Shown here: one piece after another, positions 1,222 through 46,673 of the stretch
Layout of the letters: the number at the start of each line of letters is the position of its first letter
Position numbering within the stretch: the stretch's first letter is position 1
Source: Prorocentrum cordatum
Taxonomy: Eukaryota
Direction of reading: 5' to 3'
Assembly: GCA_963575745.1 (NCBI GenBank)
Contig: CAUYUJ010000280.1
Span: 1 to 64,000 of the forward strand
DNA: 64,000 bases
Notes under the pieces: model-generated
Seen by the model: only the letters and a program-made list of their open reading frames with translations
The model's database searches: none
What the model was told of the DNA's origin: nothing
Program-made: the position numbers and the translations under genes

Positions 1222-2004
1222 ATGCGAGTGGTTGTGGATGAATTAGCCAACACGGCAGAGTTGTACCACGCATGTGTCCATCCTGCGCAGTACCAGCGAG
1301 GAGAAACCAGAGCAAGTGTCGAGATGTTCGAGCAGGAGGCTGGTCACCAATTGGAACCTTTCCAACTGGCAGCATGCGAGGCAGTGGCGGCGGGCGAGTC
1401 TGCGATAGTCTCGGCCCCAACTTCGGCGGGAAAGACCTGCGTGGCGCGCTACGCTCTGCGCCACCACATGCGGATGGGGATGGTAGCGTATACCAGCCCG
1501 ATCAAGGCCTTGTCCAACCAGAAGTTCGTCGAGTTCTCGGAGGCCTTCCCCGGAGAGGTCGGGCTCCTCACTGGAGACACGCAGATACGCCCTGATGCGC
1601 GGATCCTTGTCGCAACGACCGAAATCTTTCGTGCCCGCCTTGGGGAGGCCTCCTTCTCGCGAGACCTCCGCGCGGTGATCTTCGATGAGATACATTATTT
1701 AGCGGACGAGGAGCGAGGCGTGGCATGGGAGGAGGCCGTGCTTATGCTTCCGCCTGGTGTGCCTCTCGTCTGCTTGAGCGCCACCGTTCCGAACTTCCGA
1801 GACGTTGCGGGCTGGATCTGCGAGGCACGCTGCACGCCCGTGCACGCCATTGCCACGTTGAGCCGACCAGTGCCGCTGCGGCACTCCGTCCTGGCTGGGC
1901 AGAAGGTGCACCCGCTGGGGCCTGCGGCAGAGGGTGTCGCCGCCGCCAACGCTGCACTGTCCGAGCAGGCGGGGAGGACGAAGGAGAGCGCCGCGATGCG
2001 GGAG
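1222..2004 (+). CDS. Exon 1 of Ski2/Mtr4-like DExH helicase fusion gene (RecA1 domain)
   Basis: LEPFQ (Q motif), SAPTSAGKT (I), YTSPIKALSNQKF (Ia), GLLTGD, ATTEIFR (Ib), IFDEIHYL (II), CLSATVPN (III), RPVPLRH. Homology stops at GAG|GT donor (2004/2005, phase 0). Start ATG at 1222 is inferred; an upstream exon cannot be excluded. Confidence 0.9.
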
Positions 2005-2040
2005 GTTGTCTCAGGGGGCCAGAAGGGGGGGGGGGGCCCG

Positions 2041-2428
2041 GGGTTGGGTCGGGCCTGTGTCCCTCTACAGGAGGCAAGCTCAAAGATGGTGTAAACATGT
2101 GGTCCGGGGGCGACTTCTCGATTGCTCTGGCATATGTTTGAATGTTTGTTGTTTTGCTGCTATTTTTCTTGTTCTTCGAAAATCCGCCTGTATCGGGGGA
2201 GCGTAAGACCTGGGTTTGCCAGGACTCGGGTTCGCCATCGTTTTTTGACGACCGCGCCTCGGATTTTGACGAGGAGGAGTTTCGTGGGATGTCTGCAGCG
2301 GGAGGCCTCGTCAAAATGCAGGCTCGGCCTCGTCATTTTTTTGACGACCTCGTCGGGCCAACCCGAGTCCCCCGTACCCGGGTCTTACGTCTCCCCGACT
2401 GTAGGGGGGGCATGCCCGACCTAAGCCC
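2041..2428. mobile_element. MITE family A copy 1
   Basis: Left GGGTTGGGTCGGGCCTGTGTCCCTCTACAGG and right CTGTAGGGGGGGCATGCCCGACCTAAGCCC are imperfect inverted repeats. A related shorter copy is at 48185-48355. Confidence 0.6.
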
Positions 2429-44520: not shown

Positions 44521-45758
44521 CGCGCGGCCCTTCGGCGCCACCACCGCGCCCCCAGCGCCTCGACGGCCCCGCGTCGTCGGCGGCTGCCCCGCGCCGCGAC
44601 GGCCCACGCGTCGTCGGCGGCTGCAGGCCTCCGCGCGCCCGTGGCGCGCGCGGGGGGCGTCGGTCAGCGCCGTCCTCCTGGGGCTTTGCGAAAAAAAGAG
44701 GCTGCAGCGGTGCATAGGGGCACAGTGGTGTACGCAGGCGACGTGGTGCACGCGCTTGCCCTTGGTGTGCAGAGGTACTGCGGTGTACACGGGCGCTGTG
44801 GTGCACGCAGGCGTTGTCGTGTACACAGGTATGTCGTGCACACAGGCCGCTGCTGGCGCGCCTCGGGGGTGCACGCCGCAGCCGCCGTTACTGTTACTGC
44901 CCCCCGCCGACCCTCCACCCCCCCGTAACACAAAATACCCCATGTGGACAACATGACGATCTCTTTGTCCATTTCTATTCACCAATCCTCTACGACTCAG
45001 GATGTCTGGGTGGCTCTCCGAACATCCCCTTTTGTGTTGGCTGGTTAGAATGTTCTGCTTCGTGATTTGTGGATCACAGCGCATTGTTCGCGATTCGTTC
45101 GTAGTTAATTGCCAGTGTTTTGTACGCCGTGGCGTGTGACCCGTCATTTGTGATTTTCGCCCCTTGGCCTGCGGTTTGTGATCCGTGGCTGGTGTGTGGC
45201 TTGTGGCACAGGAGGTTTCGTGGCTTGTGGCTCGCTGTTAACGACTCTTTGTTCGGGCTGGTTCGTGGATCTTGGTTCTTGGCACTTGCTTCATGATTTG
45301 CGCCTCGTGGCGCGTGGTTCTTGGTCGGCTCGTTGTTGGTGGTCCCTGGTTCTCGCCTGAGATTTGTGGCTGGTGGTGCGTAAATTTCAGTTCGTGGGTA
45401 GTGATTGCCGGTTCTCGTTTCGTGCAGCTTATTTCGTGTCTCGTAATTGGTGCCTCCTGTTTGATTGATGGTTCGTAGCTCATTGCTTGTGATCCGTGGC
45501 CTGTGCTGTACTGATCGATATGCCTCATTCCATCATCGGTTGCTTCGCCGGCGCCCCGTGCGCTGGCTGGAATTTCTGTGTTTTCGGCTGGTGCTTGGCC
45601 GTGGGCTTCTCGCGGGAGCCGTTGGGATTGCCCAAGTCGGGTGGCGGCCAACGCAGTTCTTATCAGTGCAGGTGCGTCTGGGGAAGGTGCATCCTCGCAT
45701 GCCTCTTCAGTGACACCTCTTGTGTGAGAAGCTGCCAAGCGTTCCCCCTTCCCCCGAG

Positions 45759-46673
45759 GTGTGGCAGTTCGGCGACGGCAGCTTCACCTCCCAGGCCGAA
45801 GCTGCCGTGCGCTCCGTCCTCGCTTACTCCTGGCTGGCCACGGTGGAGGCGCTCGAGGGCTCCAGCCTGCAGCAGCGCGCCGAGGCGATTGCAGCCACTG
45901 CAGCGCTGCATGCAGAGCTCGAGCCTCGCGAGCTCGAGGTGCTGTCGGCTGCCACCGAGGCGTGCGCGGCGGCGTGCCTGGAGGCGGGCAGCGACGCCGC
46001 GGGCGAGGTGCTCGGCGCCCGCGGGCGCCTCCCCGACTGCCGCGACGGCAGGCTCCGTGCGCAGGTGGAGGCCCTCCTGGGGCGCGGCGCGCCGGTGCTG
46101 AGGGACCACCCAGAGGCGTGGACGGCTGCGCGCGAGGCGCGCGTGGCGGCCTGTGCACCTCCAGCTTTCGCAGGCACGGCTCGTCTGCGCGAGCGATTCG
46201 GCGTCGCGGTTCCGGACGGCGGCCCAGCGGCGCTGCAGCAGGTGGTCGAGGAGAGCTCATCGGCCCTCCTGTCCGACAGTGTCCGTGGTCGCGCTGCTGG
46301 GCGCGTGCTGCGGCTCATGTTGGCGGCAGCGGCAAAGGCACCACGCATCAGTGCGATCAGCATGCTGGACGCGTTCCGACTGGCCGATGCGTCTGGCCTT
46401 CTCTGCACCCTGAACCCGCCCTCCGGGCGGTTTGCAGACGGTGGTGCCGCGACCCCGGCAGAGACGTGGATGGCATTGCAGCTGCTCTTCATGCCGCTGG
46501 ACCAGGAGTCTCTGGCAGAGCTTCTCGCAGAGCATGCGACCCCGACGGAAGAAGCGAAGATCATGTTGGAGGATGCCTCTGTGCGCAGATGGCTCCGTTC
46601 GATGCCTGGCCCGACCCAGGGCGATGTAGAGGCAGAGCGTTTTGTCCGACTTTGCACCGGGCGGTTTGCGTGA
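45759..46673 (+). CDS. Probable last exon (6) of helicase fusion gene, Ala-rich helical region of unknown family
   Basis: Pyrimidine tract then GAG|GT acceptor at 45758/45759, phase 0 with exon 5 (GAQ|VWQFGDG). 304 codons with the same GC3-rich usage, ending TGA at 46671-46673. The link rests on splice phase and codon usage only. Confidence 0.65.
   Translation: MWQFGDGSFTSQAEAAVRSVLAYSWLATVEALEGSSLQQRAEAIAATAALHAELEPRELEVLSAATEACAAACLEAGSDAAGEVLGARGRLPDCRDGRLRAQVEALLGRGAPVLRDHPEAWTAAREARVAACAPPAFAGTARLRERFGVAVPDGGPAALQQVVEESSSALLSDSVRGRAAGRVLRLMLAAAAKAPRISAISMLDAFRLADASGLLCTLNPPSGRFADGGAATPAETWMALQLLFMPLDQESLAELLAEHATPTEEAKIMLEDASVRRWLRSMPGPTQGDVEAERFVRLCTGRFA

What the first reader, a model, noticed from the sequence alone, without database searches (positions are those of the whole stretch)
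1222..46673. Giant dual-helicase fusion: Ski2/Mtr4-like SF2, ParB-like domain and Upf1/Sen1-like SF1 helicase in one ~2,320-aa protein
Seen: the pieces the ORF track shows as separate helicase fragments join in frame at plausible dinoflagellate splice sites. The 1194-aa ORF at 23944 has no ATG ahead of its first domain and an in-frame stop at 23887. It begins with the missing C-terminal DSHCT domain of the Ski2-like helicase (FDALL...AGIAVRGLQRLDRLL...LAFMPSLL, 23983-24180) and reads on without a stop into a ParB-like domain and a complete SF1 helicase, so that part of the fusion does not depend on my splice calls. Established: Ski2/Mtr4 are 3'->5' exosome-feeding helicases that normally end at DSHCT. 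Upf1/Sen1-family enzymes are 5'->3' helicases acting in the same surveillance routes (Upf1 with the Ski complex in NMD; Sen1 with TRAMP/Mtr4). Inference: a single-chain, opposite-polarity RNA surveillance or antiviral/anti-transposon machine with a possible built-in effector. I know of no described protein with this architecture. Walker A/B and motif VI look intact in both helicases.
Basis: partly seen in the sequence, partly recalled or inferred. Interest (0 to 1): 0.92.

Follow-up and report, generated by a model that had tools for sequence, protein, structure and literature searches.

The report
Dinoflagellate double-helicase fusion gene
A six-exon gene of the dinoflagellate Prorocentrum cordatum encodes one 2,319-residue protein that joins an Mtr4/Ski2-type RNA helicase, a ParB-like "toxin-type" domain and a Upf1/Sen1-type helicase; several dinoflagellates keep this arrangement, but nobody seems to have studied it.

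Summary
All five introns have dinoflagellate-type borders. The window is Prorocentrum cordatum. A 2,362-aa protein from a 7,230-nt contig (P0008, 59% identical) is collinear with all six exons. The same order (DEAD/Helicase_C, DSHCT, ParB-like domain, AAA_11/AAA_12) occurs in a Trinity transcript and in Effrenium and Symbiodinium proteins. Catalytic motifs of both helicases are intact. The middle domain has no Pfam match. It folds like ParB/sulfiredoxin and carries the S...NRR signature of Tox-ParBL1. The SF2 half lacks the Mtr4/Ski2 arch. I could not lay RNA-seq reads, so the junctions rest on homology, and the borders of intron 2 are uncertain. Function is inferred: an RNA surveillance or decay machine with two motors of opposite polarity and a ParBL1 effector. 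My searches found no paper describing it, although database entries exist under automatic names (DOB1, MTR4, MAA3).

The parts
1222..2004 (+). Exon 1. It holds the start ATG (an in-frame stop lies 21 codons upstream) and the RecA1 domain of the Ski2-like SF2 helicase, with motifs I (APTSAGKT), II (DEIH) and III (SAT). The Pfam DEAD match covers about 1357-1797.
   Evidence: (P0008 residues 1-262 match at 75% identity)
2005..18555 (+). Intron 1, 16,551 nt, GT donor and AG|G acceptor. It is rich in satellites, including a 90-bp array at 10744-13058. Its long ORFs have no credible Pfam hits.
18556..18676 (+). Exon 2, 121 nt: the start of RecA2 (...RPLIVFSVGRSFCRQLAEM...). Its 3' border is uncertain.
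20921..21921 (+). Exon 3. It holds the rest of RecA2 (Helicase_C about 21088-21327; motif VI QMSGRAGRRG), a short linker with no room for an arch, and the N-terminal two thirds of DSHCT (about 21616-21912). Its 5' border is uncertain by up to about 13 codons.
23983..24084 (+). Start of exon 4: the continuation of DSHCT. The Pfam alignment crosses the 21921/23983 junction and the score rises from 29.1 to 49.2 bits.
24259..24717 (+). ParB/Srx-fold domain of the Tox-ParBL1 type. Conserved positions: F-[ST], F-x-D-G and N-R-R-L (GNRRLAAFR). It has no Pfam family.
24763..25611 (+). Middle region with no family or PDB sequence match. It is conserved in the fused homologues and is probably the N-terminal accessory part of the SF1B helicase, but this is not shown.
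25612..27471 (+). Upf1/Sen1-like SF1B helicase core (AAA_11 and AAA_12). Motifs I GPPGTGKT, Ia APTNTAV, II DEACQ, III GDPRQLP, V VDGFQGDERD and VI RLNVAVTRPK are present. A long low-complexity insert lies between Ia and II. This is the end of exon 4.
33550..34200 (+). Exon 5: first part of the C-terminal tail. No family match; 47% identical to P0008.
45759..46673 (+). Exon 6: Ala-rich C-terminal tail and the TGA stop. No family or PDB match; 49% identical to P0008. The Symbiodiniaceae tails align poorly to it.

Best explanation
The locus is one intact six-exon gene of Prorocentrum cordatum. It encodes a 2,319-aa single-chain protein with this domain order: arch-less Mtr4/Ski2-like DExH helicase with DSHCT; an acidic linker; a Tox-ParBL1 (ParB/sulfiredoxin-fold) domain; an accessory region; a Upf1/Sen1-like SF1B helicase; and a ~520-aa tail that varies between lineages.

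Shown: the architecture, its intact catalytic motifs and its conservation in dinoflagellates.

Inferred: it acts on RNA as an ATP-driven surveillance or decay factor. The SF2 motor takes 3' ends and moves 3'->5'. The SF1B motor takes 5' ends and moves 5'->3'. The ParBL1 domain between them supplies a phosphotransfer or nuclease-type activity on the RNA that the motors deliver. Because the two motors are tethered, they can run together in only two geometries: on the two strands of a duplex end (RecBCD-like, on dsRNA or an RNA:DNA hybrid), or on the two fragments made by an internal cut.

My odds: real single-chain fusion 0.9; RNA rather than DNA substrate 0.65; any one of the specific mechanical models no more than 0.2.
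For: - Frame: one open frame across the six exons, with dinoflagellate-type splice borders.
- Splice-independent core: DSHCT-C, ParBL1 and the whole SF1 helicase lie in one uninterrupted exon.
- Junction 3: the DSHCT profile match runs across junction 21921/23983 (29.1 to 49.2 bits).
- Public model: P0007 is identical to residues 516-2319.
- Closest homologue: P0008 (2,362 aa on a 7,230-nt contig, so an unbroken ORF fills the contig) aligns end to end at 59.4% identity (1,357 of 2,284 columns). The alignment is seamless at 4 of 5 junctions.
- Other homologues: 4 of 5 long proteins carry DEAD, Helicase_C, DSHCT, AAA_11 and AAA_12. These are P0015 (a Trinity transcript), P0071 (Effrenium) and P0077 and P0079 (Symbiodinium). 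The fifth, P0080, lacks only DEAD.
- Motifs: all 11 motifs checked are conserved in win, P0008, P0015 and P0071.
- SF2 half: in P0008 residues 5-678 match an MTR4 chain at E 1.4e-92, followed by FRH, DOB1 and SKI2.
- SF1 half: it matches a '5'-3' RNA helicase-like protein', UPF1, NAM7 and SEN1 at E 1e-48 to 1e-39.
- ParBL1 fold: AF2 model with pLDDT 82.8. The Foldseek rows down to rank 33 are ParB, Noc, SbnI, sulfiredoxin, serine kinase, Osa and Atu1540, with best E 0.083. The top 10 of 48,161 chains in VIA-align are of the same kinds, with Z 6.5 to 3.0.
- ParBL1 signature: it matches the published one, [ST] plus [NT][RT][RT].
- RNA context: among the 62 other proteins found with the domain, 15 carry DSHCT, 3 a eukaryotic RdRP, 1 an MTPAP-like nucleotidyltransferase, 1 KH and 1 zf-CCHC.
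Against: - No transcript of this organism was examined. Read laying failed, and no transcript-derived fragment of this gene turned up in the protein collection.
- The public annotation starts the gene inside DSHCT, so the annotators did not join exons 1-2.
- The borders of intron 2 are unresolved.
- Helicase_C in the window scores below Pfam's cut-off (20.8 against 23.5 bits).
- The ParB-fold matches are weak in absolute terms: no Foldseek E <= 0.001 and Z < 8.
- ParB-superfamily activities are diverse (CTP clamps, kinases, possibly nucleases), so the effector chemistry is open.
- In a tree of the N-terminal halves the fused forms do not form one group. The fusion therefore arose twice, or the SF1 part was lost in some lines.
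- Polarity, substrate and activity are all inferred from family membership.
Confidence: 0.6

Rival explanations
1. DNA or R-loop enzyme rather than an RNA decay factor. In this reading the Sen1-like SF1B motor and a Hel308-like use of the Ski2-like motor act on RNA:DNA hybrids or damaged DNA in the unusual dinoflagellate chromatin. The ParB-like domain would bind or cut DNA.
For: Most solved relatives of the middle domain are DNA-associated: ParB, Noc, KorB and Osa. SEN1 and DNA2 are among the SF1 matches and Hel308 among the SF2 matches. Zhang et al. 2012 class Tox-ParBL1 with nucleic-acid-targeting toxins without settling DNA or RNA (section 25 read).
Against: MTR4, DOB1 and SKI2 match at E 1e-92 to 1e-72, against 1e-27 to 1e-30 for Hel308-type chains. 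The domain's partners elsewhere are RNA enzymes: RdRP, an MTPAP-like transferase, KH and zf-CCHC. DSHCT is the hallmark of the RNA helicases of the exosome pathway (recalled).
Confidence: 0.2
2. Not one working chain. Either the joined frame is a gene-model or read-through artefact of two neighbouring same-strand genes, or the product is a polyprotein that is cut into a separate Mtr4-like/ParBL1 enzyme and an SF1 helicase.
For: Dinoflagellates transcribe same-strand gene arrays and make polyproteins from multi-unit genes (PMC10666404, passages read). The public model lacks exons 1-2. SF1-less Mtr4-like/ParBL1 proteins exist (P0011, P0012, P0009, P0021, P0028). No reads were laid.
Against: The DSHCT end, ParBL1 and the SF1 helicase share one exon with no stop. 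The same unbroken order is kept at 30-59% identity in at least five further proteins from three named genera plus unnamed sources, two of them from transcript-like contigs. The known dinoflagellate polyproteins cited in that paper are repeats of one unit, not different enzymes.
Confidence: 0.1
3. Relay rather than joint action. Only one motor engages at a time, as in yeast, where Sen1 ends non-coding transcription and hands the released 3' end to TRAMP/Mtr4 and the exosome. The fusion would simply keep the two steps together, and ParBL1 would be a regulatory NTP-binding switch rather than a catalyst on RNA.
For: SEN1-type chains are among the best SF1 matches and MTR4 is the best SF2 match. 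A relative fuses an MTPAP-like (TRAMP-type) transferase to the Mtr4-like/ParBL1 core (P0021). Many ParB proteins are CTP-dependent switches (titles of the matched entries).
Against: Nothing in the sequence separates this from the joint-action models. ParBL1 also serves as the tip of an RHS-repeat protein (P0067); by what I recall of such polymorphic toxins, the tip is where a catalytic toxin is expected, rather than a switch.
Confidence: 0.15

Closest known systems
Mtr4 / Ski2 (DSHCT-bearing Ski2-like DExH RNA helicases of the exosome pathway)
   Same: It has the two RecA domains with motifs I, II (DEIH), III and VI, and a C-terminal DSHCT. The best PDB sequence matches are MTR4, FRH, DOB1 and SKI2.
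   Different: There is no arch/KOW insertion: only about 75 residues lie between Helicase_C and DSHCT, and no rRNA_proc-arch hit appears. The long N-terminal regions of Ski2/Mtr4 are absent. The chain continues for about 1,600 more residues instead of ending at DSHCT.
Upf1 / Sen1 / IGHMBP2 (Upf1-like SF1B helicases)
   Same: It has AAA_11 plus AAA_12, motifs I-VI are intact, and the PDB matches run at 1e-48 to 1e-31.
   Different: No CH domain or Sen1 N-terminal domain was detected. A ~300-residue low-complexity insert lies between motifs Ia and II. The helicase is fused behind another helicase.
Tox-ParBL1 (Zhang et al. 2012, PMC3482391), a divergent ParB/sulfiredoxin-fold toxin domain also noted in eukaryotes
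   Same: It shares the predicted ParB fold and the conserved N-terminal S/T plus N-R-R motif. A relative sits behind RHS repeats.
   Different: Here it is an internal domain between two helicases of a eukaryotic protein. The taxa listed for the family in that paper's Table 2 do not include dinoflagellates (passage read). I did not run a direct profile comparison with the founding Neisseria member.
RecBCD / AdnAB-type bipolar helicase-nucleases (analogy only)
   Same: Two motors whose families have opposite polarity are combined with a possible nuclease-type domain. Tethered motors of this kind can cooperate on the two strands of a duplex end (established for RecBCD; recalled).
   Different: The motor families differ (SF2 Ski2-like plus SF1B, against SF1A plus SF1B). 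This is one chain, not a heterotrimer. The presumed substrate is RNA. There is no PD-(D/E)XK nuclease and no homology implied.
Brr2 / Slh1 / ASCC3 (tandem-helicase proteins)
   Same: They are very large single chains with two helicase units, one of them Ski2-like. They appear as weaker matches.
   Different: Those proteins repeat the same Ski2-like/Sec63 cassette. Here the second unit belongs to another superfamily (SF1).

Membership tests
Ski2-like DExH helicases (Mtr4/Ski2 branch) | RecA1/RecA2 core with motifs I, II (DExH), III and VI | tested here: met
   DEAD scores 1e-21. The motifs APTSAGKT, DEIH, SAT and QMSGRAGRRG are conserved in 4 of 4 aligned proteins. Helicase_C alone is below cut-off in the window (20.8 against 23.5 bits). 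However, the collinear P0008 aligns to MTR4 over residues 5-678.
Ski2-like DExH helicases (Mtr4/Ski2 branch) | C-terminal DSHCT (helical bundle) domain | tested here: met
   The match is 49.2 bits (cut-off 22.7) across the exon 3/4 junction in P0007. Exon 3 alone gives 29.1 bits. The exon 4 piece alone gives no hit.
Ski2-like DExH helicases (Mtr4/Ski2 branch) | Arch (stalk plus KOW; Pfam rRNA_proc-arch) inserted before the helical bundle | tested here: not met
   No rRNA_proc-arch hit appears in the window pieces, in P0007 or in the homologues. Only about 75 residues separate Helicase_C from DSHCT. The best PDB match is a 734-residue MTR4 chain aligned nearly end to end; that this chain is an arch-deleted construct is recalled.
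Ski2-like DExH helicases (Mtr4/Ski2 branch) | 3'->5' RNA unwinding and delivery to the exosome | not testable with these tools
   This needs biochemistry.
Upf1-like SF1B helicases | AAA_11 plus AAA_12 core with motifs I, Ia, II (DEAxQ), III (GDxxQLP), V and VI | tested here: met
   AAA_11 scores 1.5e-38 and AAA_12 8.4e-47. The motifs are conserved in 4 of 4 proteins. UPF1, NAM7, SEN1 and IGHMBP2 chains match.
Upf1-like SF1B helicases | Accessory 1B barrel and stalk ahead of motif I | tested here: inconclusive
   The AF2 model of 24763-27471 is poor (mean pLDDT 42.8). There is no sequence match for 24763-25590.
Upf1-like SF1B helicases | 5'->3' translocation | not testable with these tools
   This needs biochemistry.
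Tox-ParBL1 | ParB/sulfiredoxin fold | tested here: met
   The model has pLDDT 82.8. The top 10 of 48,161 chains in VIA-align are ParB/Srx-type (Z 6.5-3.0). The Foldseek rows to rank 33 are of the same kinds, but the best E is only 0.083. The scores are weak; the case rests on their consistency.
Tox-ParBL1 | Conserved N-terminal S/T and an [NT][RT][RT] motif, mostly N-R-R | tested here: met
   N86, R87, R88 and L89 are invariant in 36 of 36 aligned sequences, and the F-[S/T] column is mostly S or T. The signature is taken from Table 2 of PMC3482391.
Tox-ParBL1 | Relatives at the C-terminal tip of polymorphic (RHS/filamentous) toxins | tested here: met
   P0067 has RHS_repeat with the domain at residues 801-875 of 901. 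This is 1 of the 62 other proteins found.
Tox-ParBL1 | Profile match to the founding member (Neisseria NGK_2271) or to the authors' alignment | not tested
Classical ParB (ParBc N-domain plus HTH, CTP-dependent DNA clamp) | Match to Pfam ParBc, followed by an HTH DNA-binding domain | tested here: not met
   No Pfam family at E <= 1 for 24181-25590. GNRRLAA resembles the ParB GxRRxxA box only in part (the box is recalled).

The most novel reading that the evidence does not exclude
A self-contained 'cut-and-reel' RNA destruction machine. The ParBL1 domain, which sits between the motors in the chain, would nick a target RNA such as an aberrant, transposon or viral transcript, or an RdRP product. 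The new 3' end would feed the Mtr4-like motor and the new 5' end the Upf1-like motor. One polypeptide would then do what SMG6, Upf1 and the Ski complex, or Sen1 and TRAMP, do as separate factors. That would also give the widespread but unstudied eukaryotic ParBL1 domain its first function, as an RNA-directed catalytic module of silencing and surveillance pathways; it also follows RdRP and a TRAMP-like transferase/helicase in other proteins.
Probability: 0.15. Interest if true: 0.85.

Novelty: new variant of a known kind. Interest (0 to 1): 0.62.

Why it matters
Natural fusions are strong hints of functional coupling. This one ties an exosome-type 3'->5' helicase to an NMD/termination-type 5'->3' helicase in a single chain, and it places between them a ParB-like domain that so far has only a predicted toxin role. 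If the motors work together, it would be the first single-chain bipolar RNA helicase. If ParBL1 is the catalyst, a domain found in many eukaryotes would gain a function. For dinoflagellates, where gene control is largely post-transcriptional, it nominates a lineage-wide RNA quality-control factor. In practice, the public P. cordatum model lacks its first 515 residues, and the Symbiodinium orthologues are named after only one of their halves.

Tried and rejected
- RNA-seq junction test. Runs were found, but laying them failed three times: once for a repeat in the stretch, once for a filter, then on the cap.
- No whole genome is held for this window.
- Word-indexed protein searches found only P0007, P0008 and P0077 in the near-length ranges, and nothing among shorter proteins. 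No transcript fragment of this very gene was therefore seen.
- The 84-residue DSHCT end alone gave no MTR4 hit against the PDB.
- The tail (45759-46670) and the middle region (24763-25590) gave only chance-level PDB rows and no Pfam family.
- The ESM Atlas look-up of the ParBL1 part gave scores of 0.76, below the level at which shuffled proteins also score, so it is uninformative.
- The AF2 model of the SF1 module with 8 sequences was poor (pLDDT 42.8). I did not search with it.
- The scan's earlier findings held nothing by place, words or sequence.
- Of 49 long ORFs outside the called exons (introns and the downstream flank), Pfam gave no credible gene. There were only low-complexity hits and one sub-threshold Exo_endo_phos, so I reject the idea that the introns hide further exons or genes of known families.
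- I considered that the SF1-less relatives are merely truncated fused proteins. Their tails have no BLASTP hit to the fused middle region (0 of 6), so this is not supported.

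
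Full report
**What the window is.** The exon 4 frame (23890-27528) is 100% identical to an NCBI protein of Prorocentrum cordatum, P0007. That protein is 1,804 aa, listed as 'unnamed protein product', and UniRef names it after the Ski2/MTR4 C-terminal domain. The window's composition fits what the genome paper reports. The window has 38-73% GC in 2-kb bins, and the CDS called here has 64.7% GC and 75.7% GC3. The paper gives a genome mean of 59.7%, a CDS mean of 65.9%, a mean intron of 4.7 kb, donors GT/GC/GA at 25/51/24% and AGG acceptors at 80% (PMC10666404, passages and Table 2 read).

**The observation.**
Frame 0 has 1 stop; the other two frames have 45 and 38.
- The donors are GT, GC, GA, GA and GT, each after a G. 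All five acceptors are AG|G.
- The ATG at 1222 has an in-frame stop 21 codons upstream.
- The frame 23890-27528 is preceded by a stop at 23887-23889 and has no Met before LAFMPSLL.
- P0007 is letter for letter residues 516-2319 of the joined product. The public model therefore uses junctions 21921/23983, 27471/33550 and 34200/45759, but it starts at an internal Met inside DSHCT and omits exons 1-2 and the first 214 residues of exon 3.

**Domains.**
- Pfam finds DEAD in exon 1 (1e-21). In exon 3 it finds Helicase_C (20.8 bits, just under the 23.5 cut-off) and DSHCT (29.1 bits, profile 5-110). In exon 4 it finds AAA_11 (1.5e-38) and AAA_12 (8.4e-47).
- In the spliced context of P0007 the DSHCT match rises to 49.2 bits and profile 5-146, and it runs 34 residues into exon 4. 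This is independent support for that junction, and it shows that the big exon begins in the middle of a domain.
- By itself the exon 4 piece is too short to score, against Pfam or against MTR4 chains.

**Relatives.** An exhaustive HMMER search used 23983-25590, which covers the DSHCT end, the ParB-like domain and the middle region. It found 63 proteins at E <= 0.001, with 15 at <= 1e-10 and 2 at <= 1e-30.
- The best hit after P0007 itself is P0008. It has 2,362 aa, is 59% identical, and comes from a 7,230-nt Logan contig that its ORF nearly fills.
- By tblastn, P0008 is collinear with all six exons: 1-262 on 1222-2007; 261-339 on 18553-18792; 300-626 on 20950-21933; 623-1805 on 23983-27471; 1829-2032 on 33571-34203; and 2032-2360 on 45759-46664.
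- Globally it is 59.4% identical to the window's product (1,357 of 2,284 columns). The alignment is seamless at four junctions. At 18676/20921 the window has 13 extra residues. There are 37 frame-preserving alternative donor/acceptor pairs for that intron, so its borders need reads.
- P0015 (2,582 aa, a Trinity transcript in EukProt), P0071 (2,614 aa, Effrenium voratum) and P0077 and P0079 (2,652 and 2,943 aa, Symbiodinium microadriaticum) all carry DEAD, Helicase_C, DSHCT, AAA_11 and AAA_12. P0080 (S. necroappetens, 2,337 aa) lacks only DEAD.
- The automatic names of these proteins ('ATP-dependent RNA helicase DOB1', 'MTR4, partial', 'MAA3') each reflect only one half.
- All 11 motifs I checked are conserved in the window product, P0008, P0015 and P0071. 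These are SF2 motifs I, II, III and VI; NRRL; and SF1 motifs I, Ia, II, III, V and VI.

**The two helicases.**
- Against PDB sequences, residues 5-678 of P0008 match a 734-residue MTR4 chain over 34-725 at 1.4e-92. Then come other MTR4 chains, FRH, DOB1 and SKI2 at 1e-88 to 1e-72. Hel308-type and Brr2 chains follow far behind, at about 1e-30 to 1e-24.
- No rRNA_proc-arch hit appears in any of these proteins, and only about 75 residues separate Helicase_C from DSHCT. The SF2 half is therefore an arch-less Mtr4/Ski2-like helicase and not an orthologue of either.
- A 2026 review of dinoflagellate RNA-binding proteins mentions a separate, canonical DEAD + helicase C + arch + C-terminal architecture. 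It does not mention Ski2, Upf1, DSHCT or ParB (PMC12787238, term search).
- The SF1 half matches a '5'-3' RNA helicase-like protein', UPF1, NAM7, SEN1 and IGHMBP2 at 1e-48 to 1e-31. It is a Upf1-like SF1B helicase, and the data do not place it nearer to Upf1 or to Sen1.

**The middle domain.**
- Pfam has nothing for 24181-25590, even at E <= 1.
- Thirty-six sequences align around an invariant N-R-R-L, an invariant F, and a mostly S/T position after a conserved F.
- The AF2 model of 24235-24762 has mean pLDDT 82.8, with values above 88 over residues 31-150.
- Foldseek against the PDB gives no E <= 0.001. However, every listed row down to rank 33 is SbnI, Atu1540, ParB, Noc, sulfiredoxin, free serine kinase or Osa (best E 0.083).
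- VIA-align against 48,161 representative chains puts Atu1540, serine kinase, PadC, sulfiredoxin, SbnI, KorB, a pNOB8 ParB-N, Osa and Spo0J in its first ten places, with Z 6.5 to 3.0. Only 33 chains reach Z >= 2. The scores are modest; the agreement between the two methods is what counts.
- In the model, NRRL opens a helix right after a strand (E80-83, H86-98). From what I recall, the ParB GxRR box and the sulfiredoxin GCHR motif sit in that position.
- Zhang et al. 2012 defined Tox-ParBL1 as a divergent ParB-fold toxin domain with a conserved N-terminal S/T and an [NT][RT][RT] motif. They found it at the tips of polymorphic toxins and in several eukaryotic groups (PMC3482391, Table 2 passages and section 25 read). 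The window's domain fits that signature, and one relative found here sits behind RHS repeats (P0067).
- I did not compare it directly with the founding member.

**Context of the domain.** I scanned the 62 other proteins against Pfam (37, 25).
- 15 carry DSHCT just upstream of the domain. Of these, 3 also carry AAA_11, two of them AAA_12 as well (P0008, P0015; P0017 is a fragment cut just after the start of AAA_11).
- 3 carry a eukaryotic RdRP, 2 an alpha-kinase, 1 RHS repeats, 1 zf-CCHC and 1 a PA domain.
- 39 have no family at E <= 1e-4.
- Two of the DSHCT proteins have further parts: an MTPAP-like nucleotidyltransferase (P0021) and KH (P0028).
- Named members come from Symbiodinium, Durusdinium, Effrenium, Polykrikos and Prorocentrum.
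- The recurrent core is therefore Mtr4-like helicase, DSHCT, ParBL1, and most partners are RNA enzymes.

**History of the fusion.** I built a tree of the N-terminal halves with 11 rows and no outgroup. The window and P0008 group with three SF1-less proteins (support 95/96). P0015, P0071 and P0077 lie on the other side. The tails of the six SF1-less proteins have no BLASTP hit to the fused middle region. Either the SF1 part was lost in some lines or the fusion arose twice; I cannot tell which.

**How it probably works.**
- Shown: one chain, both ATPase motors intact, and a conserved ParBL1 domain between them. In the comparison with P0015, ParBL1 is a local peak of conservation: 35 of 100 identical, against 20 of 81 and 18 of 90 in the flanking bins.
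- From family knowledge (recalled): Ski2-like helicases move 3'->5' and Upf1-like helicases move 5'->3'.
- Inference: tethered motors of opposite polarity can run together only on the two strands of one duplex end, as RecB and RecD do, or on the two fragments of a cut RNA. Otherwise they must take turns.
- I favour an RNA surveillance or decay role, because of the MTR4/SKI2 and UPF1/SEN1 matches and the RNA-enzyme partners of ParBL1.
- The chemistry of ParBL1 is open. It could be a nuclease, a phosphotransferase or an NTP switch.
- The rivals are a DNA or R-loop role, a relay without joint action, and a cleaved polyprotein or artefact. I weigh them in their own sections.

**What could not be done.** The SF1 module gave a poor model. 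The tail and the middle region stay unassigned.

**Literature.** No paper found describes this architecture, in these searches:
- ParB + RdRP + Ski2 + toxin domain: 0 papers.
- DSHCT + AAA_11 + AAA_12: 18 papers held at least two terms; of the 10 listed, one holds all three, a liverwort miRNA review that I did not read.
- Dinoflagellate + Ski2 + Upf1 + helicase + fusion: 43 papers held at least four terms; none of the 10 listed contains 'dinoflagellate'.
- Bipolar-helicase terms: 3 papers, all on DNA enzymes.
- ParB-like + Mtr4 + RdRP: none of those listed contains 'ParB-like'.
- ParB domain + RdRP + RNAi: none of the 10 listed contains 'ParB domain'.

For all of these I saw search listings only. 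Subscription journals are not covered.

**Verdict.** This is a real gene, correctly read by the first stage. It encodes a conserved dinoflagellate protein that combines known domain families in an arrangement I could not find described in print, although database entries already exist.

Noticed in passing
window 20848-21921 / P0007: The public P. cordatum gene model starts at an internal Met inside the DSHCT domain. It therefore lacks the first 515 residues: exons 1-2 and the first 214 residues of exon 3.
   Followed up: yes
window 10744-13058; 31393-31618; 32201-32834: A 90-bp satellite (25.8 copies, 95% matches) lies in intron 1. Arrays of 88-89 bp with visibly similar units lie in intron 4. 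They account for many of the long spurious ORFs.
   Followed up: partly
window 52927-55187; 57621-60635: Very long trinucleotide arrays lie downstream of the gene: (TGA)n of about 2.3 kb and (AGT)n of about 3 kb. GC skew there reaches 0.7 and GC falls to 38%.
   Followed up: no
window 38000-45000 (inside intron 5): A block of 70-73% GC holds long overlapping + strand ORFs. One of them (39553-41664) has a sub-threshold Exo_endo_phos hit (21.9 bits, cut-off 24.5) and no reverse transcriptase was found. It may be a decayed LINE-like element.
   Followed up: partly
proteins P0020, P0025, P0029, P0021, P0028, P0054, P0060, P0010, P0067 (hits): The same ParBL1-type domain follows a eukaryotic RdRP (Durusdinium, Symbiodinium), an MTPAP-like transferase plus Mtr4-like helicase, a KH plus Mtr4-like helicase, alpha-kinases, a zinc knuckle and RHS repeats. 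It behaves as a mobile module that mostly travels with RNA enzymes.
   Followed up: partly
tree (window product, P0008, P0015, P0071, P0077 and six SF1-less relatives): The fused proteins do not form one group in the tree of the N-terminal halves. The fusion was either lost in some lines or made twice. The tree had no outgroup.
   Followed up: partly
window 18117-18450 and 19444-19858: Intron 2 and the end of intron 1 carry A/T-rich simple repeats, including codon-like ACn/AAT runs that read as poly-Thr/Asn and an (ATC)n array of 139 copies. They lie next to the 121-nt exon 2.
   Followed up: no
alignments A3/A4 (P0071, P0077-P0080): The Symbiodiniaceae orthologues have a different, longer C-terminal tail with an internally repeated motif (...GWVTL.AR...). 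They are only 17-22% identical to the window's exon 6 tail, so the tail differs between lineages.
   Followed up: no
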